Counted from the stretch's first letter, positions 7,398 to 36,933 are shown. The stretch: DNA of 36,933 nucleotides from Nitrospirae bacterium GWC2_57_9 (GCA_001805085.1 MHEA01000034.1:1-36933), one strand, 5' to 3'. A program made the numbers and translations. Notes: generated from the sequence alone by a model not told the origin.

Positions 7398-7418
7398 TTA
7401 CGGCTTTAAAGGAGAACC

Positions 7419-9420: not shown

Positions 9421-9450
9421 TTGCCTTTATGCCTCATTTTCCTCTATAGT
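9421..9450 (+). promoter_or_regulatory. Candidate sigma70-type promoter TTGCCT-18-TATAGT upstream of the Nuc-like gene
   Basis: ttgcct at 9421-9426 and tatagt at 9445-9450. This is sequence resemblance only. Confidence 0.3.
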
Positions 9451-9487
9451 CGGGAGTGGAAGAAGAACATCCCCGGAAGGAGAGAAG

Positions 9488-10075: not shown

Positions 10076-10147
10076 GCGAAGCGATCCCGGTCTGCCGGTC
10101 AACAGGGTCCGCCGGGTGCACCTCAAAGAGAGAGCATATCCCACTTT

Positions 10148-10513: not shown

Positions 10514-10535
10514 TTCGAGTTCGGAGTGCGGAATT
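10514..10535. repeat. Family B copy 2: 22-mer TTCGAGTTCGGAGTGCGGAATT directly after a stop codon
   Basis: It begins on the base after TGA 10511-10513 and is identical to 15673-15694. It continues as ...cggaatgc (a gaattcggaat unit). Confidence 0.8.
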
Positions 10536-10716
10536 CGGAATGCATGCGGCATCGTGAACTAATCGCTCCTTGAAACCAGCTACGGCGCGAATGTAACTCC
10601 TTCCCTTTATATATCCTCATATCTCCAAACTGTGCTAAAATGTGAATAGAGACAAGCAGTTGGGCTTTGCTTATCCTTGAAAATACAGGACTTATTCAAT
10701 CCCGATTGAGGCATAT

Positions 10717-12663: not shown

Positions 12664-12744
12664 CAAATCCTAAATCCGAAGCACGAAATCCTAGATTTGA
12701 ATTTCGATATCGTTTAGAATTTCGAGCTTCGAATTTCGAGATTG
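12664..12744. repeat. Family A palindrome copy 4 (CGAAAT/ATTTCG variant), acn-citrate synthase spacer
   Basis: caaatcctaaatccgaagcacgaaatcctagatttgaatttcgata faces tcgtttagaatttcgagcttcgaatttcgagattg. Confidence 0.75.
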
Positions 12745-12764
12745 TCATGGATAGAAGGTCACCT

Positions 12765-13988
12765 ATGAATGCCAAAACTCAAAGAAGAGACACTACAGAA
12801 AAAGCTGAAGAGAAGACGAAAAACATCGGCTTGCGCGGCGTGACGGTTGCGGATACGAAGATCTCCGACGTGGACGGCGAGAACGGCATCCTGATCTACC
12901 GGGGGTACCGGATCGAGGACCTGGCGAAGAATTCGGCCTTTGAGGAGACTGCTTACCTGCTCCTGCACGACGACCTGCCGACCGATGAACAGTTGAAGGA
13001 CTTCAAGCAGCGCCTCGCAAAGGCCCGGCAGGTTCCCACGTTCATACTGAATGCGCTCAAGACCTGGCCCCATGGCGCGAATCCCATGGACGCGCTCCAG
13101 GCGTCCGTGCCGCTCCTTGCCATGGCGGACCCGGAACTGGAAGTGGAGACGCGGGAGGCAAACGTGGCGAAAGCCACTCGTCTCATCTCCCGGATCCCCG
13201 GTGTTGTTGCCGCCTGGCAGCGTATCCGTCATGACCAGGAGCCGATACCGGCTGATGAGCGGCTGAGCCATGCCGAGAATTTCCTGTGGCAGCTGACCGG
13301 GAAAAAGCCAGATGCGGAAATTGCCATGGATCTGGATATTGCGCTGATCCTGCATGCGGACCATTCCTTCAATGCTTCGACGTTCGCCTGCCGCGAGGTG
13401 GTGTCAACGCAGGCGCACATGTACGCCGCGGTGGCCGCGGGCGTGGGCGCGCTTTCCGGAAGCCTGCACGGCGGCGCCAATGCGGAGGTCATGAAGATGC
13501 TGCAGGACGTCCAGAACGAGAAGGATCTGGCCGAATGGGTCCGGTCGCAGCTCGGATCGGGTAAAAAGATCATGGGCATGGGCCATGCCGTATACAAAAC
13601 GAACGATCCCCGTGCCCAGTTCCTGAAGGAGATGGGCGGACGCCTGGGTCGAAAGCTCGGCCAGGAGCAGTGGCATCGGATGCTGAGGGAGATTGAAGCG
13701 GCGGCATTGGCCGAGTTCGAGAAGCGGGGAAAGACGACGATCAAGCCCAATGTGGATTTCTACAGCGCGCCCGTCTACCACCTCATGGGCATTCCCGGCG
13801 ACCTGATGACCCCCGTCTTTGCCATTGCCCGCATCGCCGGCTGGACGGCTCATATCATCGAGGAGAAGTTCGGCGAGGCCCAGGGCAAGCCGGCGCTGTA
13901 CCGGCCGTCCTCCGAATACATAGGCAACTACTGCGGCAGGACCGGGTGCGTGTATAAGCCGAAGGAGGAGAGGGCAAGCACCAAATAA
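12765..13988 (+). CDS. gltA: Citrate synthase
   Basis: Track ORF 12747..13988. ATG 12765 has a better SD (AGAAGG 7 nt upstream), but 12747 is also possible. Motifs seen are LILHADHSFNAST and the GMGHAVYKTNDPR citrate synthase signature. Confidence 0.9.
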   Translation: MNAKTQRRDTTEKAEEKTKNIGLRGVTVADTKISDVDGENGILIYRGYRIEDLAKNSAFEETAYLLLHDDLPTDEQLKDFKQRLAKARQVPTFILNALKTWPHGANPMDALQASVPLLAMADPELEVETREANVAKATRLISRIPGVVAAWQRIRHDQEPIPADERLSHAENFLWQLTGKKPDAEIAMDLDIALILHADHSFNASTFACREVVSTQAHMYAAVAAGVGALSGSLHGGANAEVMKMLQDVQNEKDLAEWVRSQLGSGKKIMGMGHAVYKTNDPRAQFLKEMGGRLGRKLGQEQWHRMLREIEAAALAEFEKRGKTTIKPNVDFYSAPVYHLMGIPGDLMTPVFAIARIAGWTAHIIEEKFGEAQGKPALYRPSSEYIGNYCGRTGCVYKPKEERASTK

Positions 13989-14160
13989 CAAGCACCAAAC
14001 TCCAAATAAGCTCCAAGTTCCAATGATCAAAGCTCGAAACGTTTGAATTCTGGAGTGAGCGCATTCCCCGCAGCTTGCTGCAGGGAGCTTCAATATGATG
14101 GGTGCTTGGAAATTGGATATTATTTGAGATTTGTTATTTGTAATTTGGAATTTATTTAAG
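13974..14160. repeat. Family A palindrome copy 5, overlapping the last codons and stop of citrate synthase, with a GC hairpin nested at its centre
   Basis: The left arm gcaagcaccaaataacaagcaccaaactccaaataagctccaagttccaatgatcaaagctcgaaacg faces the right arm gggtgcttggaaattggatattatttgagatttgttatttgtaatttggaatttatttaag. The centre carries the family D hairpin (14063-14094). Confidence 0.8.
14063..14094. repeat. 32-nt GC hairpin repeat (family D, copy 1)
   Basis: attccccgcagcttgctgcagggagcttcaat. The stem is ccccgcagc/gctgcaggg with one C-A mismatch. It is 29/32 identical to 25446-25476. Confidence 0.75.
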
Positions 14161-14260
14161 CGGGAGGCGCATGGCGACCAAGAGAACAGTGAAAAGTCGG
14201 AAGGCCAAAGCAGGGAATGCCGAGGCAAAAGCCACGTCCTCCCCCAAGGGGGTGAACAGT

Positions 14261-15670
14261 ATGAAGGTCAGTTCATTAAAGTCTTTTATTGAAAAGCGAA
14301 AGAGCATTCAGTCCATCAATCCCTATACCGAAGAGGTGATGAAAGAGATTCCGCTCATGACCCGCGACGATATCGCTGCTCAGGCCGAACGTTCCCGCGA
14401 GGCATTCAAAAGCTGGAGCAGCAGGCCCTTGTCCGAGAGGACGGGGCTCGTCAAGAAGCTTGGAGACCATCTCCGGGCGGACAAACGGAAATACGCAGAG
14501 CTGATCACCAAGGAGATGGGCAAACCGATCAAGGAGTCCCTGGCCGAGATCGAGAAATGCGCCTGGCTCTGCGATTATTATGCGGAGAACGCAGGGAACT
14601 TCCTGAAGCCGGAAGAGATCAGGACCGAGAACAAAAAGAGCATGGTCCTGTTCCAGCCCCTGGGCGTGGCGCTCGCGATCATGCCCTGGAACTTCCCCTA
14701 CTGGCAGGCGTTCCGGTTCGGCATACCGGCAGTCACGGCCGGCAATGTCATTCTGCTGAAGCATGCATCCAATGTCCCACAGACCGCGCTTTCCATCGAG
14801 GACGCCTTCAGGGCGGCCGGGTTCCCGGAGGACGTGTTCAAGACCCTGATCATCGATGTGAAGGAAGCGCTGAACTTGATCGACACTGACCAGGTGGATG
14901 CTGTTTCCCTCACCGGGAGCAACGCAGCCGGGGAGCAGGTGGGCGCCCATGCAGGAGCGAAGATCAAGAAACTTGTGCTCGAACTGGGCGGTTCCGACCC
15001 CTTCATCGTGCTCGATGACGCGGACGTGGAGAAGGCCGGCAGAACGGCGGCCAACGCGCGCATGATCAACGCGGGCCAGAGCTGCATCGCGGCCAAACGG
15101 TTCATTGTGATGGACAAGGCGGCGGAGGAGTTCAGGACGCATTTCATCGCGCGGCTGAAGGAGCTGAAGGTCGGCGATCCCATGGACGAAAGCACGGATG
15201 TGGGTCCGCTGGCGCGGCGTGACCTGCTCGAGGCGCTGAACAGGCAGCTGCAGGACGCAAAGAAGAGCGGGGCAGAGATCGTCCAGATCGGCAACGGCGC
15301 CGGCAGCAAAAAGGGGTTCTTCTTCTCGCCCGTGGCTGTCTTTAATCCCAGGCTCGACAGCAAGGTCATGAAGGAAGAGGTATTCGGACCGATCGCGCCG
15401 GTCGTCGTGGTGAAGAGCGAGGACGAAGCCGTCAGGATCGCGAACGACACCGAGTTCGGCCTGGGGGCGTCCATCTGGAGCAGGAACATCGACCGGGCAG
15501 AGAAACTGGCTGCCAGGGTCGAGTCCGGGTTCGTGGCGATCAACGACTCCGTGAAATCCGATCCGCGCCTGCCCTTCGGCGGCGTAAAGAAGTCGGGCAT
15601 CGGCAGGGAGCTGTCGGAGTACGGGTTGAAGGAGTTCGTGAATATCAAGACCGTGGTGGTGAAAGAATAG
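14261..15670 (+). CDS. NAD(P)+-dependent aldehyde dehydrogenase, succinate-semialdehyde dehydrogenase-like
   Basis: Track ORF 14171..15670. ATG 14261 (MKVSSLKSF...) follows AAGGGGGTG and gives a typical length of about 469 aa. ALDH catalytic motifs are LELGGSDP (Glu) and NAGQSCIAAKRF (Cys). Substrate assignment is by resemblance and context only. Confidence 0.8.
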   Translation: MKVSSLKSFIEKRKSIQSINPYTEEVMKEIPLMTRDDIAAQAERSREAFKSWSSRPLSERTGLVKKLGDHLRADKRKYAELITKEMGKPIKESLAEIEKCAWLCDYYAENAGNFLKPEEIRTENKKSMVLFQPLGVALAIMPWNFPYWQAFRFGIPAVTAGNVILLKHASNVPQTALSIEDAFRAAGFPEDVFKTLIIDVKEALNLIDTDQVDAVSLTGSNAAGEQVGAHAGAKIKKLVLELGGSDPFIVLDDADVEKAGRTAANARMINAGQSCIAAKRFIVMDKAAEEFRTHFIARLKELKVGDPMDESTDVGPLARRDLLEALNRQLQDAKKSGAEIVQIGNGAGSKKGFFFSPVAVFNPRLDSKVMKEEVFGPIAPVVVVKSEDEAVRIANDTEFGLGASIWSRNIDRAEKLAARVESGFVAINDSVKSDPRLPFGGVKKSGIGRELSEYGLKEFVNIKTVVVKE

Positions 15671-15672
15671 AC

Positions 15673-15694
15673 TTCGAGTTCGGAGTGCGGAATT
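15673..15694. repeat. Family B copy 3: the same 22-mer, 2 nt after a stop codon
   Basis: ttcgagttcggagtgcggaatt, 2 nt after TAG 15668-15670. Confidence 0.8.
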
Positions 15695-15720
15695 AAGAAA
15701 AGGCATGAACCGCGAAGCAT

Positions 15721-16060
15721 TGTCTCACAGGTCGCCACGGAGCCACGAAGAGAAAAAATTAAGGCGAAATGCTTTGTCTCGCGCAAAGCCGCAAAGACGC
15801 AAAGAAGGAGCGAACAACTGCTTATTCTTGTTAGCCCGTAACAGAAGCAGGGGATTTAGCGATTTTGTTTCTTTCGAATTTGAGGGCTGCATTAAAAGAT
15901 TGAATTCCGGCTTTCATAAGGACTTCTTCGTGGCTTTAGTGAGAGACCGGGGTTGTTTTTTGCATTGTTTTCCCTTTGCGACTTTGCGGCTTTGCGCGAG
16001 ACCGTTTTTGACTTGTTCTTTGTTTTTCTCCGGGTTCTCGTGCCTCTGCAAGAGACCGGG
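15721..16060. mobile_element. MITE-like non-coding element with nested inverted repeats (family C, copy 1)
   Basis: The 29-bp inverted repeats gtctcgcgcaaagccgcaaagacgcaaag (15776-15804) and ctttgcgactttgcggctttgcgcgagac (15974-16002) are 28/29 complementary. The outer arms ...gccacggagccacgaagagaaaaa / tttttctccgggttctcgtgcc are also inverted. There is no ORF with protein character inside. Confidence 0.65.
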
Positions 16061-23087: not shown

Positions 23088-24572
23088 ATGGGAGAACTTG
23101 CGAAAAAAATGGAATTTCAAAGACCGGAGTTGGTCAGAATTTCCGACGTAATATGGGACCTGCTCCCGGACTTCAAGCACGGGATGAGGGTCCCCGCCCG
23201 GATAATAGCGACGAGAAAGCTAATCGATGCCATGGACCTTCAGGTCTATGACCAGATAGCGAATGTGGCAACGCTGCCGGGGATCCAGAAATACGCCTAT
23301 TGCATGCCCGACGGCCACAGCGGGTACGGGTTTCCGATCGGTGGAGTGGCGGCATTCGACGTGAACGAGGGAGGCGTCATCTCGCCGGGCGGGATCGGAT
23401 TCGACATCAATTGCGGCATGCGCCTGGTGCTCACAAACCTGACCTACGAACAGGTAAAACCTGAGTTGCGGACGCTTGTGGACAGGCTTTTCAGAAGTGT
23501 TCCCGCAGGCGTGGGGAGCAGGGGATTCGTCAGGCTTTCCCATAACGAATTCAGGGACGAGGTCGCCATGGACGGAGCGCACTGGGCTGTTCGGAGCGGA
23601 TTCGGATGGCTGGAGGACCTGGAACGGACGGAACTCCAGGGCAGGGCCGGGTGGGCGGACAGCGCGAAAATTTCTCCCCGGTCCGTAGAGAGGGGCTTTA
23701 ACCAGATCGGCACACTCGGCTCCGGCAATCACTACCTCGAGATACAGCGAGTGAAACCGGAGAACATTTTCAATAAAGAGCTTGCCGCAAAGTGGGGACT
23801 TTTCCCGGAACAGATCGTGATCATGTTCCACTGCGGTTCCCGGGGATTCGGACACCAGGTGGCTTCCGATTACCTCGAGCTGTTCCTGTCCGTCATGGAA
23901 GCGAAATACGGGATCAAGATCCTCGACCGGGAACTGGCCTGCGCTCCCTTTTATTCGCCTGAAGGGCAGGCATACTTCAAGGCCATGGGCTGCGCCGTGA
24001 ACATGAGCTTTGCGAACAGGCAGGTGATCCTTCACCGGATACGGGAAGTATTTGCGGATGTATTCAACAAGACCCCTGAAGAACTCGGCATGCACATGGT
24101 GTTCGATATCGCCCACAACCGGGGGACCTTTGAAAAGCACGAGGTGGATGGAAAAGTGAAAGAACTGATCGTGCACCGGAAAGGGGCCACCGGAAGTTAC
24201 CATCCAGGCCGGGAAGAGATCCCGGAGATCTACCGCGATGACGGATCGCCGGTCATCATCGGCGGGTCGATGGAGACGGGGAGCTATCTCCTCGTCGGCG
24301 GGCCGAACGCGAAAGAGACGTTCTGCTCCACGGCACACGGAAGCGGCAGGACCATGAGCCGGACCAAGGCGAAGCATATGGTGAACGGCCGTGAACTGAT
24401 TCGGAAGCTTGAGGCGAGCGGCATCTATGTCAGGACCGCGAGCTATCCGGGCGCGGCCGAGGAAGCGGGCTTTGCGTACAAGAACATCGACGATGTGGTA
24501 GAGGCAGCCGCGCTTGCCGGCATTTCAATGCCCGTCGCAAAGCTCGTGCCGCTGGGGAATGTGAAAGGATAA
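23088..24572 (+). CDS. rtcB: RNA 3'-phosphate ligase RtcB
   Basis: 494 aa. Motifs seen are CMPDGHSGYGFPIGGV, GSGNHYLE, FHCGSRGFGHQV and TAHGSGR. Confidence 0.92.
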   Translation: MGELAKKMEFQRPELVRISDVIWDLLPDFKHGMRVPARIIATRKLIDAMDLQVYDQIANVATLPGIQKYAYCMPDGHSGYGFPIGGVAAFDVNEGGVISPGGIGFDINCGMRLVLTNLTYEQVKPELRTLVDRLFRSVPAGVGSRGFVRLSHNEFRDEVAMDGAHWAVRSGFGWLEDLERTELQGRAGWADSAKISPRSVERGFNQIGTLGSGNHYLEIQRVKPENIFNKELAAKWGLFPEQIVIMFHCGSRGFGHQVASDYLELFLSVMEAKYGIKILDRELACAPFYSPEGQAYFKAMGCAVNMSFANRQVILHRIREVFADVFNKTPEELGMHMVFDIAHNRGTFEKHEVDGKVKELIVHRKGATGSYHPGREEIPEIYRDDGSPVIIGGSMETGSYLLVGGPNAKETFCSTAHGSGRTMSRTKAKHMVNGRELIRKLEASGIYVRTASYPGAAEEAGFAYKNIDDVVEAAALAGISMPVAKLVPLGNVKG

Positions 24573-26766: not shown

Positions 26767-26906
26767 AAATTATACTATGTTGAATCGCGCGCAGGCGCGG
26801 CGCGCAGGTGCATGCGATTGGACAAGAATATCAAACCACCCCTTCACGCCGATCTACTTAATCTTACTCAGGGCTGGGAGGGCTGAAGCAATCTTCGGTG
26901 TTTGCT

Positions 26907-27458
26907 TCAGCTCCCGCAGCTATCTGCGGTATTTTTCCCAGAGCCGTAGACCCAGTCATGCCGTTTGCTCATTAACGCCCTCAGGTCCATGCGGATCTCC
27001 TCTGTGGTAGGACGCCCCACATACCACCACCCGTTATATATCTTATAAATCGTACGATCGTGATCCAGGATAAAGGTATAGGGTATATATATTTCTCCGT
27101 GAATCTTGTCGGTCGTGTCCGCCATTTCCAGCTCATGCAGCAGCTTGCGGTCGGTATCCATCAGAAAGGGAAAGTCCGCGGCCAGCGAATTTCGGGTCTC
27201 GTTCGTATTCATGTGATCGTCGACCGAAACAATGATCATGTGACAGTAATTGACCCTCAATTCCGGCTGGAGCTGCACAACGTAGTTCGTCAACTGACGA
27301 CGGTCCTTGGGTCAGAAATAGCCGCGGCTGAAAACGAGAACGCCGGGCATGTTCCGAAGTAAATGGGACAGTTTCTTACGATTGCCGGACTGGTCCGGCA
27401 GCTCGAAGTCGGGAAAATGCGCACCGACCTTCAAGTCCGATCGCATTGGATAATTCAT
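26907..27458 (-). CDS. AhpC/TSA-redoxin-fold protein with in-frame TGA at the active-site Cys position (candidate selenoprotein)
   Basis: The frame of track ORF 26907..27293 stays open upstream through a single TGA (27314-27312) to ATG 27458 (GGAGG 10 nt upstream). It reads MNYPMRSDLKVGAHFPDFELPDQSGNRKKLSHLLRNMPGVLVFSRGYF-TGA-PKDRRQLTNYVVQL... The thioredoxin-fold context xxVLVFxRGxx(C/U)Pxxxxxxxx is preserved. Confidence 0.7.
27285..27314 (-). promoter_or_regulatory. Candidate bacterial SECIS hairpin downstream of UGA
   Basis: The mRNA reads UGA-CCCAAGGACC-GUCGUC-AGUU-GACG(A)AC. That is a 5-6 bp stem with a GU-containing tetraloop at +20 to +23 from the U of UGA. Confidence 0.5.
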
Positions 27459-27668
27459 TAAACGGAAACCTCCTCGTCATTTTTCAAATCGATTACCTTA
27501 ATATATCTCACCACAACGCTATTATTGCTGTCTCTCGCGCTGGATTCAACATACTATTGATACTTCTAACTCCTCAAAATGCGCTCTTAGCACCTTCTCT
27601 GTACGGTAAATCCATCTGTTTTGTGATATGTAGAAAGAGAATGAAGATCAACAGAGGAGGGAATAGTT

Positions 27669-27962: not shown

Positions 27963-28018
27963 CCCGGCCGAACGGCCTCGACTGCATCGAGCCTCACTTT
28001 CCTGTTTGAGGAAATGCC

Positions 28019-28549
28019 GTGAGAACGATTCTTGTCATGCCGATCGGCCATGTGGATCGGGAAACGATCGATTTCATAACAGGAGCTATACGGGAAACCG
28101 GTGAGTGCGATATCATACAGGGCGAACCGATTCCCGTGCCTCAAAAGACCTTTAACGCTCGAAGAAGTCAATACAACTCCACAAGGATATTGAAAGCGCT
28201 CGAGGGTCTAAAGCCCGATACCTATGAACGGCTCCTCGGCGTGCTGGATGAAGACCTCTATGTTCCTGAGCTTAACTTTGTTTTCGGAGAGGCCGATATG
28301 ATTGCCCGGGTCGCCGTGATCGGCCTTCCCCGGCTGCGCCAGGAGTTCTACGGGTTGGAGCCGGACCGCGCTCTCTTTCTCAGGAGAGCGGCAAAGGAAG
28401 CAGTGCACGAGCTGGGGCACTTAAAAGGTCTCGGCCATTGTCCTGTTCCCCGGTGCATTATGCATTTTTCAAACAGCCTCGCGGAGACGGATATGAAGGA
28501 AGCGAAGTTCTGTGCCCAATGCAGAAACAAATTGAACGAGTTAAGATGA
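28019..28549 (+). CDS. amzA: Archaemetzincin-type zinc metallopeptidase
   Basis: 176 aa. HELGHLKGLGHC matches the HExxHxxGxxHC motif, and a C-terminal CxxC (CAQC) is present. The start is GTG, after GAGGAA. Confidence 0.85.
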   Translation: MRTILVMPIGHVDRETIDFITGAIRETGECDIIQGEPIPVPQKTFNARRSQYNSTRILKALEGLKPDTYERLLGVLDEDLYVPELNFVFGEADMIARVAVIGLPRLRQEFYGLEPDRALFLRRAAKEAVHELGHLKGLGHCPVPRCIMHFSNSLAETDMKEAKFCAQCRNKLNELR

Positions 28550-28707
28550 CTTTATGGGTATCAGCGCTCTCTATGCAGCAACAAAGCGAACGCCAAAACA
28601 GGGGCCTCCGCGGAAGCCGGGAGGACCTCCCAGACCTTCACCGCCCAAGCCGAAACCCCCAAAACCACGGCCGTCGAAGGTGTGAACTAATAATTAAGGA
28701 GAAGGTA

Positions 28708-29124
28708 ATGAAAGGATACGTAGTCGATATCGAAAAGGCGACAAAGGAAAACGGCAACTTCCGCAAAGTGCTTTATACCGCGAAAAACAGCCAGCTGGTG
28801 TTGATGTCGTTGAGGCCGGGTGAAGACATCGGCGAAGAGGTGCACGACCTGGACCAGTTCATCAGAATAGAAGCAGGAACGGGAAAGGCAATGCTGGACG
28901 GTGTCGAACATGGGATCGAGGACGATTACGCCATCGTCATTCCCGCTGGAGCCAGACACAACATCATAAATACCTCGATAGACTCGGAAATGAAGCTCTA
29001 CAGCATCTATTCGCCTCCGGAGCATCGGGAAGGTGTGATCCACAAAACCAAGGCCGAGGCTATGGCCGATAATGAACAATTCGATGGAAGAACCAGCGAG
29101 CTGCTTGTTGGCTCCAGAGGCTGA
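28708..29124 (+). CDS. Cupin-domain protein
   Basis: This is the inner part of track ORF 28438..29124. ATG 28708 follows TAAGGAGAAGG. The cupin motifs are GEDIGEEVHDLDQFIRIEAG and IPAGARHNIIN. Confidence 0.75.
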   Translation: MKGYVVDIEKATKENGNFRKVLYTAKNSQLVLMSLRPGEDIGEEVHDLDQFIRIEAGTGKAMLDGVEHGIEDDYAIVIPAGARHNIINTSIDSEMKLYSIYSPPEHREGVIHKTKAEAMADNEQFDGRTSELLVGSRG

Positions 29125-29419
29125 AGCACGAGGAGTGCCGGGGATTGTGACGATAAAAGCAGGCTGAGGCCTGATGCTGACGCATCCCTCGCGGGAAATG
29201 CATAGAGAAGCACGGGTGTCGATAATACTTAATACCGGTGCATATGCTGTGAGTACTGTGGATAAAGTTATGTCTTTCACGCATAAGCGCTGCATTATAT
29301 AGCCCGATTAATACTTCGGACCTAAAAATGGATTGTATTACAAAATGCTGCTAAAAAATTTGCGTAAAAAATTATTCTACTCACATGCTTTTACGTGCAG
29401 TTCTGCTATATTCCATAAT

Positions 29420-29641
29420 ATGGAACTAAAGCCGTTTATATTCATCATGCGTTCACCCAACGGGCAAGAATATGAGATGGCGGTGCCTGCCCGTAGAGAA
29501 AGTGACGCCGAGCGTCTATTGAAGAACCTTCTGGACGCGCTCAATTCCCGGGATAAGATTCTTTTTCTGAAAGCCTCTGAAGGCGCCTCCGGCTTGATTG
29601 ATGCCGAAGAACGTAACCCTCCTACTCTTCAATTGGGCTGA
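29420..29641 (+). CDS. Hypothetical small protein
   Basis: This is the inner ATG of track ORF 29333..29641 (MELKPFIFIMRSPNGQEYEMAVPARRESDAERLLKNLLDALNSRDKILF...). There is no SD and no recognisable family. Confidence 0.3.
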   Translation: MELKPFIFIMRSPNGQEYEMAVPARRESDAERLLKNLLDALNSRDKILFLKASEGASGLIDAEERNPPTLQLG

Positions 29642-29749
29642 TAAGAACGTCATGCAAAAATAAAGAACCGAACTGATAGTAGCCTTTGTTTTATTTCCGC
29701 CTCTTAACCTTTCTCCTCATCCGGATCGTCCCCAGAACCGGAAACTGCA

Positions 29750-30268
29750 TTACAGATTAATCTTGAGGCCCATCTCATTTTTCATATGCAGCAACGCTTC
29801 GGCATTGCCCATCGCATCATCCACCGGATGGTGCGTGTGAATCGTTTTCCTGAGATGCTTGAAATTCTGCCGGCTGTCCTTGACCAGACCTTTGTACAGC
29901 GAGCCGAGGTCGGTAGACCTGAATCCGAAGGGGTTTGATCCGATAAAATGATGAAAGTACCAGCTTATGAACTGCCAGTCAAAGCCTATATTATCGGCGA
30001 TGAACGTCGGCCGGGTTTTCACTTCGTCCCTGATCCAGTTCGCGAACTTCTGCATCACATCCTTCGGTTCTTCGAATTGCAGCGTTTCCTCGCGGGTGAA
30101 TCCCGCTATTGCCAAAGACGGAGGGTCCCACTTTTCGGAAATCGGTTTCAAACGTCCATAAAAAACACGGTTCAGGCCGGGCTCAACGATGACTGCTCCG
30201 AAACAAATCATCGAATAATCGCCGGGGATCGGTCCATCTGCTTCGATATCAACCATTACGTAAGCCAT
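29750..30268 (-). CDS. DEDDh 3'-5' exonuclease (DnaQ/RNase T-like fold)
   Basis: 172 aa with VDIEADGP (Exo I), IADNIGFDWQF (Exo II) and HHPVDDAMGNA (Exo III, H-x4-D). Confidence 0.78.
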   Translation of the reverse strand: MAYVMVDIEADGPIPGDYSMICFGAVIVEPGLNRVFYGRLKPISEKWDPPSLAIAGFTREETLQFEEPKDVMQKFANWIRDEVKTRPTFIADNIGFDWQFISWYFHHFIGSNPFGFRSTDLGSLYKGLVKDSRQNFKHLRKTIHTHHPVDDAMGNAEALLHMKNEMGLKINL

Positions 30269-30560
30269 AGGTCACCCTCAAATGCTCATTGTCCATGATT
30301 CATTATAAACCTTTATGGAAATATCGCAGCCTGCCCACAACAGCATCCATGCATTCTGATACAATAAAAAAATTGTGAAATGAGATCAGTGTCATTCCAG
30401 TAATGGGAACCCAAAGGGCCGGATGAGCAGTGATGCTCAAATAAACCCGCCTCTCCTCAAAAACCATTTATCGCGGCCTGGACGAGAATCTGCGGAAGGG
30501 AGGAGCGGATCGTTTAAGTAAAAATTCAGAATTAAGAATAAAGGAGCGATCTCACATTTA

Positions 30561-30694
30561 CTTTGCGTCTTTGCGCGAGACAAGAATCTGCTTTTTATGT
30601 TAAATCTAAAATGTGTTCACCACACGAAGTCACGAAGGCACGAAGCAAGACTTGCAGATTCTTATCTTTAACCTTGTGGCTCTGTGCCTCTGTG
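30561..30694. repeat. Family C repeat, partial/variant copy 2
   Basis: It contains ctttgcgtctttgcgcgagac (30561-30581, a shortened version of the 29-bp repeat), cacgaagtcacgaaggcacgaag, the inner inverted repeat caagaatctgc / gcagattcttatc, and gtggctctgtgcctctgtg. Confidence 0.6.
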
Positions 30695-30926
30695 TCGGCC
30701 CTGCTTGATGCCTGCGAACGGAAGATCCGGGGGGAACGCTTGCTTATCCCGGAGGAGCTGTACGGCCCAGCACGAATACGGAGCATGCGGCGGTTCCTCA
30801 AAAGAGAGAACATTTATCAGACATCGTGGTTGCAAGAGCGATATGAAACGAGAGCCAGAAAGAACCTGCAGAGATCGATGCAAAGTCCAGGCAGACAAGG
30901 TAAACCATACAAAGGAGAAACCAGCT

Positions 30927-31454
30927 ATGAAAGGATTAACTCAGTCAGGGATACTTATCATTGTTCTGGCATTTGCGGCAACTGTTTCAGCGGATGAAAC
31001 AGTCGTTCAGATGAATCTTATTAATGAACGCGGTATCGGGAAGGCGATCGGAATGATTGCGCTTTCAGACACCACGACAGGGCTTAAACTGACGCCTGCG
31101 CTCAGCGGCCTTACCCCCGGATTTCACGGCTTCCACGTACACGAGAGGCCCGATTGCGGTCCGGGAGTAAAGGACGGCAAAATTCAGGCAGGAATCGCTG
31201 CAGGCGAACACTACGATCCGGCCGGAACGGGCAAACATGAAGGCCCAGCAGGGAAGGGACATCTGGGAGACCTGCCTTATTTGACAGTGGGGCAGGACGG
31301 AAAGGCTTCAACAGTCCTGTTGGCTCCGCGCCTCAAGCTATCCGACATAAAAGGCCGTTCGTTCATGATTCATGCCGGTGAAGATAACTACAAAGATGAA
31401 CCGGCGCCGCTGGGCGGCGGAGGCGGAAGAGTGGCGTGCGGAGTGATCAAATGA
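30927..31454 (+). CDS. sodC: Periplasmic Cu/Zn superoxide dismutase
   Basis: This is the inner part of track ORF 30684..31454. ATG 30927 follows AAAGGAG. It has a signal peptide (MKGLTQSGILIIVLAFAATVSA). Motifs seen are FHGFHVHE, GHLGDLP and GGGGGRVACGVI. Confidence 0.9.
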   Translation: MKGLTQSGILIIVLAFAATVSADETVVQMNLINERGIGKAIGMIALSDTTTGLKLTPALSGLTPGFHGFHVHERPDCGPGVKDGKIQAGIAAGEHYDPAGTGKHEGPAGKGHLGDLPYLTVGQDGKASTVLLAPRLKLSDIKGRSFMIHAGEDNYKDEPAPLGGGGGRVACGVIK

Positions 31455-31520
31455 AAGATTGCTTTTTCAATAATAATACAAATAGGCGAAATTAACCCTT
31501 TTAAAGCAGGCGCGGCTGTT

Positions 31521-32473: not shown

Positions 32474-35400
32474 ATGAGAGTAGATAAAATCAACCTATCG
32501 CCTCGGACCATATTGGCCGGAGTCTGTACACTCTCGGCGTTGCCCATCCTGATCGTCGTATTGTTCCCCGGCTATTTTAACTTCGTAATCGCCCCCGCCC
32601 CCTACGTCGTTTTTCACAATATCGCCGAGTTCTTCAGCATAATGGTCTCGCTGTCCATATTCGGCATTGGCTGGTACACTTATGACCAGACCGGGGACCG
32701 GCACTCGCTTTTCCTGAGCACGGGTTTCCTCGCCATCGGGCTCATGGATTTCATGCATACCCTGGGCAATGCCGCCATGCCTGCCTTCGTAACACCCAAT
32801 TCCTCCAACAAGTCAACCCAGTTCTGGATTTCAGTCAGATTATTTCAGGCAGCCGTGTTCCTGGTCAGCGCTTTCATTTATTCAGGGGATCAACGCCGCT
32901 GGTTGTCGAAACGGATCCTGCTTTCGGCGGCCCTTCTTGTGCCGGGTACGGTCTTCGCCGGCATCACTTTCTTCCCCTCCTCTGTGCCTGATACGTTCAT
33001 TCAAGGTGTAGGGCTCACCCCTTTTAAAAAATATTCCGAATTCCTGGTCGTCGGCCTTCTGTGTCTGTCCCTGGCCGCATACTGGCAACGGATGGCGAGA
33101 TCGGGAAGCAGGCTGCTCCTCTATTATCTTGCCGCCTTGATCGTCAGCATCTTCAGCGAAATCTGCTTTGCGGTCTACACCAGGGTGTTCGACACCTACA
33201 ATGTTGTCGGACACATCTATAAAGTGGCGGCCTTTTCCCTCATTTATAAAGGCATATTCATTGTATCGGTGAAAGACCCGTATTCAAAACTTGCGGAGGG
33301 AGAACATGCAAGACGTCTTGCCTCGTTCCCGGAACTGAATCCGAACCCCGTTCTGGAGGTCGCCCCTTCCCGCGAGATTACATTTTTCAACCCTGCCACG
33401 GAAAAGACGCTCGTAAACCTCGGGATGGACAAAAACGATCCGGGCGTTTTCCTGCCCGGTGATATTGAAGCAATTTTACGGGACTTGGAGAAAAAAACTG
33501 AATCGACTTTATCTCGCGAGGTCACATTAAAAGACAGGGTCTTCGGCCAAACTATCTACCTTACTCCTCAGTTCAATGTGGCGAGGGTATATGTAAACGA
33601 TATCACCGGGCGCAAGCGGATGGAGGAGGAACGCGAGCGGCTGCTTGCCGAGGTACGGCGCCAGACTGCGGAACTTGGCGTTCAGCAGATTGAGTTGCAG
33701 GCGCAGAACGAAGAACTGCGGACAGCACAGGTTGAGCTGGAAGCCTCCCGCCGAAATTATGCGGATTTATACAATTTTGCTCCTCTCGGCTATTTTACGC
33801 TCGACACGAACGGTATTATTCTGGAGGTAAATCTTGCCGGAGCGAATCTCCTCGGGATAGACAAACAATTTCTTCTCAACAAACCGTTTTCCGTTTTTAT
33901 AGCCGGGCCTGATGATAGTGAAGTTCTCAGAAGGCATCGAAAAACGACTTATACCTCACAAAACAGACAGTCATGCGACCTTGCCTTAAAACGAAAAGAC
34001 GGCAGTATTTTTTATACCCATCTTGAAAGCATAGCGGTTGAAAACATAGATGGGAAGGCTGGCTATATCCGAACGGCGGTAATAGACATTACCGAGCGCA
34101 AGCGGGCTGAAGAGGCCCGCTCCCGTCTTTCAGCAATAGTAGAGTCTTCAGAGGACGCGATCTCCAGTACGAATATGGATGGTATTCTCCTCACCTGGAA
34201 CAGGGGCGCTGAAAAAGTATACGGGTATCATGCAGATGAGGTAATCGGAAAACACGTATCGATCCTTTACCCGCAGGAACGGTCCTCTGAACTCCCTCAA
34301 CTTATCGAAAAAATAAGCTGCGGAGAGAGTATTGAACGCTTTGAGACGGTGCGGGTCAGAAAAGACGGAAAAACCGTTCAGGTTTCCATCACGCTTTCTC
34401 CGGTCAAAGACTCAGCCGGGAATATGGTCGCGGTCTCCGCGATAACCCGTGATATCACAATTCAAAAGCAGGCCGAGGAGGCGCTACTCAAAGAACACCG
34501 CGAAATTGCGCTGGCAAACAGGCTTCTTGATGTATTTGTTAAAGAAACAGGGAATGACCTGTATGACAAGGCCCTGAACATCATGCTTGAGGCGATGGAA
34601 AGCCGGCACGGCGTATTCGGCTACATCGATGAGCAGGGTGACTTGATCTGCCCAACCATGTCGAAGCTCTTCGACCAGTGTGAGATCGCAGGGAAATGTA
34701 TCTGTTATACGCGGGATAAATGGAAAGGGCTGTGGAGCCGGGCGCTTTTGGAAAAGAAAACCCTTTTTTCAAACAAGACGGCAATAGTCCCAAGGGGTCA
34801 CATGCCGATCCGGAACAATATGGCAGTACCCATACTGTTTCAAGGCAATGTTATCGGCTTGATTAACCTGGCAAACAAGGATACCGGATACACCGAAGAA
34901 GACCGGGACTTTATTGAAGCAATTTCAAACAAAATAGCGCCGGTGCTTTTCGCCTGGATTCAGAAAGAGCTGCGGGAAAACGAACGGAAGCGGGCAAAGG
35001 AGAGAATCAGCCGCCAAAACGCAGTACTTGACGGAATCAATAAAATATTCCGGGAAGCACTCGCCTGCGATACGGAAGATGAACTGGGACGCGCCTGTCT
35101 GAATGTTGCCGAGGAGTTGACTCAGAGCCGGTTCGGGTTTATCAATGAGATGGGTTCTGACGGTTTACTCCATACTATCGCAATCAGCGATCCCGGATGG
35201 GATCTCTGCGCCATGCATGACAAGGCAGGACATTGCAGGCCTCCGGGCAATTTCAAGGTCCACGGCCTGTACGGCCGGGTGATGCTTGATAAAAAATCAT
35301 TTTTCACGAACGACCCGGCTTCCCATCCGGACAGCATAGGCACCCCGGAGGGGCACCCGTTTCTGAAGGCGTTTCTCGGCGTGCCGTTGATCCATGGTGG

Positions 35401-36933
35401 AGAGACCATCGGCATGATGGGGCTCGGCAACAGGGAGGAGGGGTATCGCAATGAGGACTTGGAGGCAGCGGAGGCCTTGTCCCAGGCCATAGTGCAGGTT
35501 TTAATGCGCAAGCGCATGGAGGAGCGGGTCGCTCATCTGGCATCCTTCCCGGAGATGGACCCCGCTCCCATTATCGAACTCCGTCCTTGTGGGGACGTAA
35601 TCTACGTTAATTCTGTTGTGAGAACACAATTCCCCGACCTGCCTGTGATGGGGCCGTCACATCCGCTGCTTTCGAATTGGCCGGAAATCTCAGCCGGCTT
35701 CAGCGATGGAAAAACCTGCTTTCTCTTCCTGGAAGCTGAAGCGGGCGGAAAGGCGTTTTACCAGGCAGTATATTATGCGCGGCAGTTGGACGTCATACGC
35801 ATCTATAATGCCGATATCACCGGGCGCAAGCGGGCGGAAGAAAAACTTATCAGGCTGAATGATGAACTCGAAAGGCGGGTCAAGGAGCGGACGGAAGATC
35901 TGGCAAAAACAGTCGCAACCCTTCGGCTTGAGATGGATGACCGACAACGCGCGGAAGAGGAAATCGTCCGTCTTGCCGCCGCCGTCGAATCCGCGGCAGA
36001 CGCCATAGTCATTACCGAGCAGGGTGCGATCCGCTATGTAAATCCCGCGTTCGAGAAGATGACGGGTTATTCAAGAGACGAAGTCAACGGCCGCGATCTT
36101 CACCTGTTCGACAGCGGCCATCACGATGAGACATACTTCATAAAGGTGCGTGAGATTCTCAAGAATGACGGGGTCTGGACAGGACGTCTTATCAATAAGA
36201 AGAAAGACGGCACACTGTACGAAGAAGAGTGCACGTATGCGCCGATCAGGGGCAGGTCGGGCGAAATCCTGAACTATATGGCGATCAAGCGCGACGTGAC
36301 CGAAAAAGTGCGGCTCGAGTCGATCGCGCAGGCGGTCGATACGATGAATAATATAGGATACATCTTCTCCGGGGTCAGGCATGAAATCGGGAACCCCGTG
36401 ACCACGATTGCAATGTCCCTGGATCTACTTCTGAAAAAAATCGAGGAATTGGACAAACAGTCCATCGCGAAGTACGTGAAAGGCTGCATCGAGCAAATCG
36501 AAAAAGTGGAATATCTGCTCCGGTGCCTCAAAAATTTCAACATGTACGAGCAACTCGAATCCCGGGACATTGTACTCAGCGAGTTCATGGACAAGTTGGT
36601 GGAGCTGGTAACAAACGATTTTGTAAAAAAGGGAATCGCAATACTCGTCGTGGTTGAACCTGACGATGCTAAGGCCTACGCCGATCCCCGTGCTCTCCAG
36701 CAGGTGCTCCTGAATCTGTTTACGAATGCAGCCGATGCGCTTGTCGGACGAGTCGATCCGAAGATCACGGTCACCGTAAATAAGGCGAAAGTTGTCCGGA
36801 TCCGGGTGGAAGATAATGGATGCGGCATTCCGGCACACAGGCTGCAGGACGTATTCAAGCCGTTTTACACGACGAAGGCGCATGGAACCGGGTTGGGCCT
36901 CATGATCGCCAGGAAGATGATCGCAAAGATGAA
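32474..36933 (+). CDS. Multidomain sensor histidine kinase (MASE3-like membrane domain, PAS x3-5, GAF x2, HisKA, HATPase_c), 3' end beyond window
   Basis: Own translation: the frame is open from ATG 32474 to the window end, and it is absent from the track because it has no stop. Membrane region: FHNIAEFFSIMVSLSIFGIGWY...GLMDFMHTLG. Modules: FPELNPNPVLEV...VNDITGRKR, PAS (YADLYNFAPLGYFTLD; LSAIVESSEDAISSTNMDG), two GAF-like regions, FPEMDPAPIIEL...YNADITGRKR, and PAS (LAAAVESAADAIVITEQG). Kinase core: H-box FSGVRHEIGNPV (His codon 36380-36382), N-box LLNLFTNAADA, G1 EDNGCGIP and G2 GTGLGL. Confidence 0.9.
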   Translation, partial: MRVDKINLSPRTILAGVCTLSALPILIVVLFPGYFNFVIAPAPYVVFHNIAEFFSIMVSLSIFGIGWYTYDQTGDRHSLFLSTGFLAIGLMDFMHTLGNAAMPAFVTPNSSNKSTQFWISVRLFQAAVFLVSAFIYSGDQRRWLSKRILLSAALLVPGTVFAGITFFPSSVPDTFIQGVGLTPFKKYSEFLVVGLLCLSLAAYWQRMARSGSRLLLYYLAALIVSIFSEICFAVYTRVFDTYNVVGHIYKVAAFSLIYKGIFIVSVKDPYSKLAEGEHARRLASFPELNPNPVLEVAPSREITFFNPATEKTLVNLGMDKNDPGVFLPGDIEAILRDLEKKTESTLSREVTLKDRVFGQTIYLTPQFNVARVYVNDITGRKRMEEERERLLAEVRRQTAELGVQQIELQAQNEELRTAQVELEASRRNYADLYNFAPLGYFTLDTNGIILEVNLAGANLLGIDKQFLLNKPFSVFIAGPDDSEVLRRHRKTTYTSQNRQSCDLALKRKDGSIFYTHLESIAVENIDGKAGYIRTAVIDITERKRAEEARSRLSAIVESSEDAISSTNMDGILLTWNRGAEKVYGYHADEVIGKHVSILYPQERSSELPQLIEKISCGESIERFETVRVRKDGKTVQVSITLSPVKDSAGNMVAVSAITRDITIQKQAEEALLKEHREIALANRLLDVFVKETGNDLYDKALNIMLEAMESRHGVFGYIDEQGDLICPTMSKLFDQCEIAGKCICYTRDKWKGLWSRALLEKKTLFSNKTAIVPRGHMPIRNNMAVPILFQGNVIGLINLANKDTGYTEEDRDFIEAISNKIAPVLFAWIQKELRENERKRAKERISRQNAVLDGINKIFREALACDTEDELGRACLNVAEELTQSRFGFINEMGSDGLLHTIAISDPGWDLCAMHDKAGHCRPPGNFKVHGLYGRVMLDKKSFFTNDPASHPDSIGTPEGHPFLKAFLGVPLIHGGETIGMMGLGNREEGYRNEDLEAAEALSQAIVQVLMRKRMEERVAHLASFPEMDPAPIIELRPCGDVIYVNSVVRTQFPDLPVMGPSHPLLSNWPEISAGFSDGKTCFLFLEAEAGGKAFYQAVYYARQLDVIRIYNADITGRKRAEEKLIRLNDELERRVKERTEDLAKTVATLRLEMDDRQRAEEEIVRLAAAVESAADAIVITEQGAIRYVNPAFEKMTGYSRDEVNGRDLHLFDSGHHDETYFIKVREILKNDGVWTGRLINKKKDGTLYEEECTYAPIRGRSGEILNYMAIKRDVTEKVRLESIAQAVDTMNNIGYIFSGVRHEIGNPVTTIAMSLDLLLKKIEELDKQSIAKYVKGCIEQIEKVEYLLRCLKNFNMYEQLESRDIVLSEFMDKLVELVTNDFVKKGIAILVVVEPDDAKAYADPRALQQVLLNLFTNAADALVGRVDPKITVTVNKAKVVRIRVEDNGCGIPAHRLQDVFKPFYTTKAHGTGLGLMIARKMIAKM

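What the first reader, a model, noticed from the sequence alone, without database searches (positions are those of the whole stretch)
26907..27458. Redoxin gene with TGA exactly at the active-site cysteine position: candidate unannotated selenoprotein with a SECIS-like hairpin
The six-frame track offers only a 128-aa ORF starting at a TTG (27293). The same frame continues upstream through one TGA (27314-27312) for another 48 sense codons, to an ATG with a GGAGG box. The upstream piece (GAHFPDFELPDQSGNRKKLSHLLRNMPGVLVFSRGYF) is the beta1-alpha1 entry of an AhpC/TSA-type thioredoxin fold. The TGA falls where these proteins carry the redox Cys (F-[C/U]-P-K). Eleven nt after UGA the mRNA can form GUCGUC-AGUU-GACG(A)AC, which places a loop GU at +21/+22. 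In the E. coli fdhF SECIS the SelB-contacting G23/U24 are at nearly the same distance. A plain nonsense mutation would be unlikely to hit the catalytic codon and also sit ahead of a fitting hairpin.
Basis: partly seen in the sequence, partly recalled or inferred. Interest (0 to 1): 0.7.

Follow-up and report, generated by a model that had tools for sequence, protein, structure and literature searches.

The report
Unannotated selenocysteine redoxin gene with SECIS
A gene annotated as a truncated 128-residue hypothetical protein is almost certainly a complete 183-residue thioredoxin-fold redox protein in which an in-frame UGA is read as selenocysteine with the help of a small conserved RNA hairpin; the recoding mechanism is a well-known kind, but this particular protein subfamily does not appear in current selenoprotein inventories.

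Summary
Window 27458-26907 (minus strand) is one gene: ATG, 48 codons, UGA (27314-27312), 134 codons, stop. The joined protein matches Pfam AhpC/TSA across the UGA. In hundreds of 70-80% identical homologues the UGA column is an invariant Cys.

Five independent assemblies of this organism carry the same TGA. Among 79 species-representative genomes, 26 have TGA at this column and 53 have TGC or TGT.

All 26 TGA copies keep a 5-bp stem with an AGUU loop starting 11 nt after the UGA. Its codons are frozen, two stem pairs show compensatory double changes, and the flanking codons drift freely. Only 4 of 53 Cys copies have the hairpin. It meets the published bacterial SECIS consensus. The region upstream of the UGA is under the same purifying selection as in Cys forms.

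Two corrections. The Sec position equals the first Cys of a thioredoxin CxxC motif, not the peroxiredoxin peroxidatic Cys, and the motif is U-P-K-D. Folding energy of this one sequence is not significant; the support for the hairpin is comparative (orthologues and a codon-level null).

The Sec machinery (selABCD) could not be checked for this organism. The U-x-x-D subfamily is absent from two inventories and from NCBIfam.

The parts
26907..27458 (-). Complete coding sequence of a 183-residue AhpC/TSA-fold selenoprotein (Met1 at 27458-27456, Sec49 at 27314-27312, stop TGA at 26909-26907)
   Evidence: Same-frame translation. Pfam AhpC-TSA covers residues 11-139 across the TGA. Full-length Cys homologues are 70-80% identical. 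A start codon lies exactly 48 codons upstream of the TGA in 21 of 26 Sec-form orthologues.
27312..27314 (-). In-frame UGA read as selenocysteine (residue 49, motif F-U-P-K-D)
   Evidence: Aligns with an invariant Cys. TGA at the same column in 26 of 79 species representatives. The same TGA is present in 5 independent assemblies, L001-L005.
27285..27301 (-). Bacterial SECIS hairpin. Conserved core: UCGUC (27300-27296), loop AGUU (27295-27292), GACGA (27291-27287). Optional sixth pair G27301-C27285 with A27286 bulged. The hairpin lies inside codons R53-R54-Q55-L56-T57-N58.
   Evidence: RNAalifold predicts exactly this stem. 99.2% of cells are paired, 2 pairs have compensatory changes, and slid controls give 4-78%. 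Codons are frozen only in TGA copies. The bSECIS criteria are met.
27469..27473 (-). Shine-Dalgarno-like GGAGG, 10 nt upstream of the ATG
   Evidence: Read directly from the sequence. Function inferred.
27521..27549 (-). Weak sigma-70-like promoter match (TTGAAT-17-AATAAT), about 63 nt upstream of the ATG
   Evidence: Consensus scan, 9 of 12 matches. The number of hits in the region is not above the shuffled expectation. Tentative only.
27243..27245 (-). Codon of Cys72, the second nearly invariant cysteine of the family (V-N-Y-C)
   Evidence: Nearly invariant column in alignments A1 and A3. The AF2 model places it at the far end of helix 50-69 from residue 49.
26873..26920 (-). Strong 3' hairpin spanning the true stop codon; probable transcript 3'-end or terminator-like structure (no U tract)
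   Evidence: MFE -25.7 kcal/mol, z = -4.8, and 0 of 200 shuffles fold as well. It does not fit bSECIS spacing or loop size, and the C-terminal tail is not conserved in orthologues.

Best explanation
Window 27458-26907 (minus strand) is a single gene for a cytoplasmic, stand-alone, 183-residue thioredoxin-fold protein of the AhpC/TSA-Redoxin superfamily. Its catalytic residue 49 is selenocysteine.

During translation, UGA49 is recoded. A 5-6 bp hairpin with an AGUU tetraloop starts 11 nt after the UGA and puts a G-U at +21/+22. It acts as a bacterial SECIS that recruits SelB-GTP-Sec-tRNA(Sec) to the ribosome. The gene's own terminal UGA has no such element and terminates normally.

The hairpin is built from the codons of the conserved peptide R-R-Q-L-T, so those codons are locked (CGU CGU CAG UUG ACG) wherever Sec is used.

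The Sec sits at the N-terminal cap of helix alpha-1, in the position of the first Cys of a thioredoxin/ResA CxxC motif. The motif is U-P-K-D, so there is no second redox residue in it. The protein most likely acts as a single-selenol nucleophile in a thiol-dependent reduction (of a disulfide, a sulfenate or a peroxide), and the resulting selenenylsulfide or selenenic acid would be resolved by an external thiol.

Shown: one gene, the Cys/Sec pairing, SECIS conservation and covariation, purifying selection on both halves, fold and residue placement.
Inferred: SelB dependence, actual Se incorporation, the chemistry and the substrate.

The family-wide pattern is one identical SECIS in several deep clades, with Cys forms nested among Sec forms and some Cys forms keeping a relic hairpin. 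This suggests that Sec is old in the family and has been replaced by Cys repeatedly (inferred).
For: - One gene: the Pfam domain spans the TGA, and more than 480 homologues of about 175 aa have Cys at that column.
- Not an error: identical TGA in 5 contigs from different samples and assemblers.
- Cys/Sec pair across species: TGA 26, TGC 36, TGT 17 among GTDB species representatives spanning Acidobacteriota, Gemmatimonadota, Neomarinimicrobiota, Chloroflexota, Rokubacteria, Methylomirabilales, KSB1, Leptospirales and others.
- SECIS codons: in TGA copies R is CGT in 24/24, R is CGT 23 / CGC 3, Q is CAG in 26/26, L is TTG in 25/25 and T is ACG in 23/23, while the neighbouring P, K, D, Y and V codons vary. 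Cys copies use scattered codons.
- SECIS association: full hairpin in 25/26 TGA copies against 4/53 Cys copies, p = 2e-15. Restricted to the identical peptide, 21/21 against 2/17, p = 9e-9. Random synonymous recoding gives the hairpin in 0.1-0.3% of draws.
- SECIS structure: RNAalifold recovers the same stem, with U-A to C-G in L016/L025/L084 and U-A to G-C in L082.
- bSECIS consensus met: loop 4 nt, G then U at loop positions 2-3, 16 nt between the UGA and the loop, 5-bp stem, MFE -8.5 kcal/mol.
- The upstream 45 codons have pN/pS 0.30 in TGA copies against 0.26 in Cys copies, with no stops or frameshifts in any of the 26. The start codon is conserved at about -48 codons.
- TGA is an ordinary stop in this genome. 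It ends this gene and also the fumarase, SodC, archaemetzincin and PGA_cap genes. 13 of 27 Sec-form genes end in TGA.
- AF2 model (pLDDT 87.6) puts residue 49 between strand 39-44 and helix 50-69. The nearest folds are PrxQ/BCP, ResA and Prx6.
- Groundwater Nitrospirae lineages with selB-selC are reported (PMC8124441).
Against: - No selA, selB, selC or selD was found. However, only the window plus about 26 kb of extra contig from this organism, and 614 kb of loci in total, could be searched.
- No Rfam family matched.
- The single-sequence fold of the 60 nt after the UGA prefers another structure and is not more stable than shuffles.
- The stem is short (5-6 bp), at the lower end of described bSECIS elements.
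- There is no direct evidence of selenium incorporation.
- Function and substrate are unknown, and no conserved gene neighbourhood gives a hint.
Confidence: 0.9

Rival explanations
1. Pseudogene or sequencing/assembly error: a Cys codon (TGC or TGT) of an ordinary redoxin gene mutated or was misread to TGA, and the gene is dead in this organism.
For: TGC/TGT to TGA is a single-base change. The public annotation treats the locus as a 128-aa hypothetical protein plus a 48-aa ORF. One Cys-form orthologue (L067) does carry a genuine in-frame TAA elsewhere in the gene, so decay does occur in this family.
Against: - Identical TGA in 5 independent contigs.
- 26 species-level orthologues have TGA at exactly this codon and nowhere else.
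- The hairpin is locked only in TGA copies, with compensatory changes.
- Purifying selection is equal on both sides of the TGA.
- The start codon is intact and conserved.
Confidence: 0.03
2. A genuine member of a selenoprotein family, but in this particular organism the Sec machinery has been lost or the gene is not expressed, so translation stops at UGA49.
For: Sec machinery genes were not found in any sequence available for this organism. Loss of the Sec trait is common in bacterial evolution (PMC1794560, title and abstract).
Against: After loss of the machinery the gene would be expected either to convert to Cys, as many relatives did, or to decay. Instead the TGA, the exact SECIS consensus, the start codon and both halves of the ORF are intact. 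Only about 63 kb of the genome was inspected, so not finding the machinery carries little weight.
Confidence: 0.05
3. Two separate small genes as annotated (a 48-aa peptide and a 128-aa protein starting at TTG 27293), or SECIS-independent stop-codon read-through or a reassigned UGA.
For: Gene callers produce exactly these two ORFs. AAGGA lies 10 nt upstream of the TTG.
Against: - The TTG is the conserved Leu56 codon inside the hairpin, and the AAGGA is just Lys-Asp codons that vary synonymously in orthologues (AAA 13 / AAG 13).
- The thioredoxin fold needs both halves: strands 1-3 and the catalytic residue are upstream.
- TGA terminates this gene and its neighbours, so the codon is not reassigned.
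- The hairpin's co-occurrence with TGA points to SelB-type recoding.
Confidence: 0.02

Closest known systems
Prx-like thiol:disulfide oxidoreductase selenoproteins (PF00578, motif UxxC/UxxU; Kryukov and Gladyshev 2004, as tabulated in PMC13188914 and PMC9312934)
   Same: AhpC/TSA fold. Sec is at the position of the first Cys of the thioredoxin-type motif. There are Cys-containing homologues. The bSECIS lies immediately downstream of the UGA inside the coding region. These proteins are predicted computationally and their function is uncharacterised.
   Different: The motif here is U-P-K-D. The +3 position is a nearly invariant Asp (Gly in four loci), never Cys or Sec, so no intramolecular selenenylsulfide can form within the motif. 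By the field's own rule (same domain but a different Sec motif means a different subfamily) it would be a separate subfamily.
Selenocysteine-containing peroxiredoxin (Prx, PF00578, PxxxTxxU; Eubacterium acidaminophilum, Sohling et al. 2001, cited in PMC13188914)
   Same: Same Pfam family and overall fold. PrxQ/BCP structures are the nearest solved folds (TM 0.67-0.74, about 20% identity).
   Different: The Sec is three residues earlier. In the alignment to M. tuberculosis BcpB (5epf), the peroxiredoxin Pro, Thr, peroxidatic Cys and catalytic Arg correspond here to R45, U49, D52 and P126. The peroxiredoxin catalytic apparatus is therefore absent.
ResA/TlpA-type thiol-disulfide oxidoreductases (CxxC)
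   Same: C/U49 aligns with the first Cys of the ResA W-C-x-x-C motif. ResA structures are among the top fold matches (TM up to 0.86 on the target). The I-P-Y-T-F segment resembles the cis-proline loop of this group (the resemblance is from my own knowledge of the group; the position is).
   Different: There is no second Cys in the motif and no membrane anchor or signal peptide. NCBIfam ResA scores 24 bits against a cut-off of 170.
E. coli fdhF SECIS (the SelB-binding apical hairpin)
   Same: A hairpin begins 11 nt after the UGA, with a tetraloop carrying G-U at loop positions 2-3 (fdhF G23/U24 against G21/U22 here). The fdhF details are from established literature. The consensus criteria are as quoted.
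   Different: It is much shorter (5-6 bp against a roughly 40-nt two-part stem), 2 nt closer to the UGA, and has no conserved bulged U. SelB binding has not been tested.

Membership tests
Bacterial selenoprotein gene (Sec-UGA plus bSECIS) | In-frame UGA aligned with a conserved Cys in homologues (Cys/Sec pair) | tested here: met
   Nearly invariant Cys column. Among species representatives: TGC 36, TGT 17, TGA 26.
Bacterial selenoprotein gene (Sec-UGA plus bSECIS) | TGA-containing orthologues in other organisms, with both flanks conserved | tested here: met
   26 species across about 10 phyla. pN/pS is 0.30 upstream and 0.29 downstream, with no extra stops.
Bacterial selenoprotein gene (Sec-UGA plus bSECIS) | bSECIS consensus: 3-9 nt apical loop, 4-16 bp upper stem, G in the first two loop positions followed by G or U, 16-37 nt from the UGA to the loop, MFE of -7.5 kcal/mol or lower (PMC13188914) | tested here: met
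   Loop AGUU (4 nt), 5-bp stem (6 with a bulge), 16 nt spacing, MFE -8.5 kcal/mol for +4 to +48. Spacing and stem length are at the lower limits.
Bacterial selenoprotein gene (Sec-UGA plus bSECIS) | Hairpin conserved by structure (covariation) and specific to TGA copies | tested here: met
   2 of 5 pairs have compensatory double changes and 99.2% of cells are paired. Hairpin in 25/26 TGA copies against 4/53 Cys copies.
Bacterial selenoprotein gene (Sec-UGA plus bSECIS) | Genome encodes selA, selB, selC (tRNA-Sec) and selD | not testable with these tools
   None found in the window, the contig extensions or any held locus, but only about 63 kb of this organism was accessible. Literature reports selB-selC in a groundwater Nitrospirae lineage.
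Bacterial selenoprotein gene (Sec-UGA plus bSECIS) | Selenium actually incorporated at the UGA | not testable with these tools
   Needs 75Se labelling or mass spectrometry.
Pfam AhpC/TSA (PF00578) and Redoxin (PF08534) | Score above the Pfam gathering threshold | tested here: met
   64.1 bits against 26, and 47.7 bits against 26.6.
Canonical peroxiredoxin (including Sec-Prx, PxxxTxxU) | PxxxTxxC/U motif with the peroxidatic residue at the second CxxC position, plus the catalytic Arg | tested here: not met
   Alignment to 5epf: Pro to R45, Thr to U49, peroxidatic Cys to D52, Arg to P126. NCBIfam PrxQ/BCP models score 16-21 bits against cut-offs of 140-260.
Prx-like thiol:disulfide oxidoreductase selenoprotein (UxxC/UxxU) | Second Cys or Sec at +3 of the Sec | tested here: not met
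   The +3 residue is Asp in 22 and Gly in 4 of the 26 Sec forms.
ResA/TlpA thiol-disulfide oxidoreductases | CxxC motif and the family HMM cut-off | tested here: not met
   Only the first Cys position is occupied. NF002854 scores 24.4 bits against 170.
SelL-related redox protein (NF040769) | NCBIfam cut-off | tested here: not met
   30.4 bits against 120.

The most novel reading that the evidence does not exclude
This is a selenoprotein subfamily that has not been catalogued: AhpC/TSA-fold, single-selenol U-P-K-D motif, with Sec at the thioredoxin first-Cys position and Asp where other families have Cys, Ser or Thr.

It is widespread: a third of species-level representatives across about 10 phyla carry the Sec form. 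It has an unusually small and almost invariant SECIS embedded in a conserved R-R-Q-L-T peptide.

Sec is probably the ancestral state and has been replaced by Cys many times, leaving relic hairpins. If so, the family would be a clean natural system for studying minimal SECIS requirements and Sec-to-Cys conversion.
Probability: 0.45. Interest if true: 0.5.

Novelty: new member of a known kind. Interest (0 to 1): 0.4.

Why it matters
- **Annotation:** the gene, and at least 26 species-level orthologues, are split or truncated in public annotation. A functional redox enzyme is therefore recorded as a hypothetical fragment. A family-specific model would repair many genomes at once.
- **Selenium biology:** the family adds a thioredoxin-fold selenoprotein type with a U-x-x-D motif that is not in the 2022 and 2026 inventories.
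- **SECIS biology:** it offers a very compact SECIS (5-bp stem, AGUU loop, 16-nt spacing) whose sequence is fixed across phyla, with natural compensatory variants. That is useful for defining the minimal SelB recognition element.
- **Evolution:** the interleaving of Sec and Cys forms, with relic hairpins in some Cys forms, makes the direction and frequency of Sec/Cys exchange directly testable.
- **Limits:** none of this changes known mechanisms. It is an incremental but solid addition.

Tried and rejected
- Rfam gathering scan of the whole window: no family.
- ARAGORN on the window and 28 loci: no tRNA-Sec.
- Scan of the window for other ORF pairs interrupted by TGA: 64 candidates. Apart from this locus they are adjacent genes or non-coding frames.
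- Pfam annotation of the rest of the window and a contig walk beyond its start: TCA-cycle genes, an ABC transporter and polymerase X, but no sel genes.
- tblastn of E. coli SelA, SelB and SelD against all 614 kb held: only one weak hit to the N-terminal region of SelB (E 3e-4, probably a generic GTPase domain).
- Single-sequence RNA fold as evidence for the hairpin: not significant, so it was replaced by comparative and codon-level tests.
- Alternative pairing register (CGUCG/UGACG with a 5-nt loop, which RNAfold prefers in several sequences): rejected, because L082 and L085 break it while keeping the AGUU-loop register.
- The idea that the terminal TGA (preceded by C-G-S) is a second Sec in a CxxU motif with its own hairpin: rejected. 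The tail is not conserved, and the spacing (5 nt) and loop (10 nt) do not fit bSECIS.
- Conserved gene neighbourhood as a clue to function: none.
- A GPx-like catalytic tetrad involving the conserved N-G-W-W: considered, then dropped. By my own reading of the GPx fold, its Trp-Asn occupies the cis-Pro-loop position, not this one.
- Look-up of U-containing full-length proteins in the public clusters: the tool does not accept U.
- Literature searches for UxxD, cd02969 and the MAG name: no papers.

Full report
OBSERVATION. On the minus strand, an ATG at 27458 opens a frame of 48 sense codons, then TGA at 27314-27312, then 134 more sense codons to a TGA stop at 26909-26907. A GGAGG box lies at 27473-27469. 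ORF listing gives only the two pieces: 48 aa from the ATG, and 128 aa from TTG 27293. Public gene calls on the same sequence show the same two pieces. The joined 183-residue protein, scanned with Cys at position 49, matches Pfam AhpC-TSA (E 1.6e-17, residues 11-139) and Redoxin (E 1.8e-12) in one stretch crossing the TGA.

IS IT ONE GENE, AND IS THE TGA REAL? A search of 5.8 billion proteins returned 483 homologues. The best 120 are 67-80% identical over 90-100% of the query (one 320-aa hit is 49% identical) and mostly 171-205 residues long. The exception is P0070, the 128-residue truncated call from 'Nitrospirae bacterium GWC2_57_9', which is 99% identical to the window. So the organism is a groundwater Nitrospirae MAG, and bacterial rules apply. 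In an alignment of 27 homologues the TGA column is Cys in the motif F-C-P-K-D-R-R-Q. Five contigs from different samples and assemblers (ENA and Logan) carry the identical TGA, which rules out a sequencing error.

COMPARATIVE TEST. A scan of one genome per GTDB species returned 80 loci encoding relatives. Reading the codon at the Cys column gives TGC 36, TGT 17 and TGA 26 (one locus was not scored). The TGA carriers include KSB1, Neomarinimicrobiota, Leptospirales, Acidobacteriota, Gemmatimonadota, Methylomirabilales, Rokubacteria, Anaerolineales, Dehalococcoidia and an alphaproteobacterium.

In all 26, the 45 codons upstream of the TGA are free of stops and frameshifts. They evolve under purifying selection as strong as in the Cys forms: pN/pS 0.30 against 0.26 upstream, and 0.29 against 0.20 downstream. 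A start codon lies exactly 48 codons upstream of the TGA in 21 of the 26, and within four codons of that position in all but one, a locus cut by its contig end. These are therefore single translated genes, not pseudogenes.

THE HAIRPIN. In the TGA copies the codons that form the hairpin are frozen:
- Arg53 is CGT in 24/24.
- Arg54 is CGT in 23 and CGC in 3.
- Gln55 is CAG in 26/26.
- Leu56 is TTG in 25/25.
- Thr57 is ACG in 23/23.

The flanking Pro, Lys, Asp, Tyr and Val codons vary freely. In Cys copies the same residues use scattered codons. The full five-pair stem with G at loop position 2 occurs in 25/26 TGA copies and 4/53 Cys copies (Fisher p = 2e-15). Restricted to copies encoding the identical peptide RRQLT, the counts are 21/21 against 2/17 (p = 9e-9). 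Random synonymous recoding of the window's peptide yields the hairpin in 0.1-0.3% of draws.

RNAalifold on the 27 TGA sequences predicts exactly this stem. Pair counting shows 99.2% of cells paired, against 4-78% when the partners are slid. Two of the five pairs carry compensatory double substitutions: U-A to C-G in L016, L025 and L084, and U-A to G-C in L082. Both cost an amino-acid change. These variants also reject an alternative register that RNAfold prefers for some single sequences.

The element meets every criterion of the published bSECIS consensus: 4-nt loop, G then U at loop positions 2-3, 5-bp upper stem, 16 nt between UGA and loop, and MFE -8.5 kcal/mol. It is at the short end for spacing and stem length.

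An honest caveat: the 60 nt after the UGA, folded alone, prefer another structure and are no more stable than shuffles (z = +0.33). Folding energy of this single sequence gives no support for the hairpin. The support comes from the orthologues and from the codon-level null.

CODE CONTEXT. TGA is an ordinary stop in this genome. It ends this gene and the neighbouring fumarase, SodC, archaemetzincin and PGA_cap genes. 13 of 27 Sec-form orthologues also terminate in TGA. Recoding is therefore local and signal-dependent.

The window gene's terminal TGA lies in a strong hairpin (26873-26920, -25.7 kcal/mol, z = -4.8) and is preceded by C-G-S. I checked whether this could be a second Sec in a CxxU motif. 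No orthologue shares the tail, and the spacing and loop do not fit a bSECIS. I read it as a normal stop inside a 3'-end structure.

WHAT THE PROTEIN IS. An AlphaFold2 model of the closest Cys homologue (P0001, 80% identical to the window protein) is confident: mean pLDDT 87.6, pTM 0.84. It places residue 49 between strand 39-44 and helix 50-69, the classic thioredoxin-fold active-site cap. Foldseek's best PDB matches are PrxQ/BCP, ResA and Prx6-type proteins at about 20% identity, with TM 0.6-0.74 on the query.

Sequence alignments to solved structures are informative. C/U49 aligns with the first Cys of the ResA W-C-x-x-C motif. In M. tuberculosis BcpB (5epf), the peroxiredoxin Pro, Thr, peroxidatic Cys and catalytic Arg correspond here to R45, U49, D52 and P126. 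So this is not a canonical peroxiredoxin. It is a single-selenol (or single-thiol) thioredoxin-fold protein with motif U/C-P-K-D.

A second nearly invariant Cys (C72) lies at the far end of the 20-residue helix, so it is unlikely to resolve an intramolecular bond without unfolding (inference). The gene is monocistronic here, lying between divergently and convergently oriented neighbours. Homologues on long contigs have unrelated neighbours, so context gives no clue to the substrate.

My best mechanistic reading is inferred. The selenolate at the helix N-cap attacks a disulfide, sulfenate or peroxide, and an external thiol regenerates it.

EVOLUTION. In a neighbour-joining tree with the C/U column masked, Sec forms fall in several deep clades interleaved with Cys forms. 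The Cys forms closest to Sec forms (L007-L009) still carry CGTCAGTTGACG. Because all Sec clades share one SECIS, a single old origin of Sec with repeated Sec-to-Cys replacement is the simplest reading (inference). This matches the general picture in PMC1794560.

SEC MACHINERY. This is the one named refuter I could not test. There is no tRNA-Sec and no SelA, SelB or SelD homologue in the window, in about 26 kb of additional contig from the same organism, or in any of the 614 kb of loci held. The literature reports selB-selC in a groundwater Nitrospirae lineage (PMC8124441), so Sec use in this group is plausible.

COMPARISON WITH WHAT IS KNOWN. Thioredoxin-fold and AhpC/TSA-type bacterial selenoproteins are well known. 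The 2026 inventory of 119 families lists these:
- Prx (PF00578, TxxU)
- Prx-like thiol:disulfide oxidoreductase (PF00578, UxxC/UxxU)
- a cd02970 family (UxxS; PF13911 in the 2022 table)
- UGC-containing TlpA
- Redoxin (PF08534, UxxC)
- Prx-SUH (CxxU)

None has U-x-x-D. Those reviews treat the same domain with a different Sec motif as a separate subfamily. NCBIfam release 20 has no model that this protein reaches; the best is SelL-related at 30 bits against a cut-off of 120. Literature searches for the motif found nothing. I could not compare sequences directly with the listed representative accessions, so an earlier description under another name cannot be excluded.

VERDICT. The window contains an unannotated selenoprotein gene with a genuine, conserved bacterial SECIS (confidence about 0.9). 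The kind is known. The particular subfamily appears to be uncatalogued, and it is a neat system for studying a minimal SECIS and Sec/Cys exchange. Interest is moderate (0.4).

Noticed in passing
window 26873-26920 (-): A very stable hairpin (-25.7 kcal/mol, z = -4.8) spans the redoxin gene's true stop codon (TGA 26909-26907). The preceding residues C-G-S mimic a CxxU spacing. No orthologue shares the tail and the geometry does not fit a bSECIS, so it is probably a transcript 3'-end or terminator-like structure without a U tract.
   Followed up: partly
L067:3144-3206 (Calditrichaceae MAG, Cys form): This Cys-form orthologue has TAA in place of the conserved Gln55 codon (CAA to TAA) inside the gene. 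It is likely a real pseudogene or an assembly error, and it shows that decay does occur in this family.
   Followed up: no
L007:3145-3200, L008:1902-1960, L009:3042-3100: Cys-form (TGC) orthologues that sit next to Sec forms in the tree still carry the SECIS core CGTCAGTTGACG. These look like relic hairpins left by recent Sec-to-Cys conversions.
   Followed up: partly
P0053 (protein hit, 320 aa): A homologue nearly twice the normal length (49% identity over 90% of the query). It may be a tandem duplication or a fusion of the redoxin domain.
   Followed up: no
window 23088-24572 (+) vs L002:12585-14031: RtcB is a single 494-aa ORF in the window and in L001, but it is split into overlapping 72-aa and 422-aa calls in the L002 assembly of the same population. 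This is a frameshift difference between assemblies.
   Followed up: no
window 1-16000 and 28000-31500: The gene context is ordinary metabolism. Upstream region: succinate dehydrogenase/fumarate reductase flavoprotein, fumarase, malic enzyme, glutamate dehydrogenase, aconitase, citrate synthase and aldehyde dehydrogenase. Near the selenoprotein gene: an archaemetzincin-type peptidase M54, a cupin and a Cu/Zn superoxide dismutase, about 3 kb away but not in an operon with it.
   Followed up: partly
window 32513-36933 (+): The apparent 5-kb gap in the ORF list is a roughly 1500-aa MASE3/PAS/GAF sensor protein gene that runs off the end of the window. It is not a non-coding region.
   Followed up: yes
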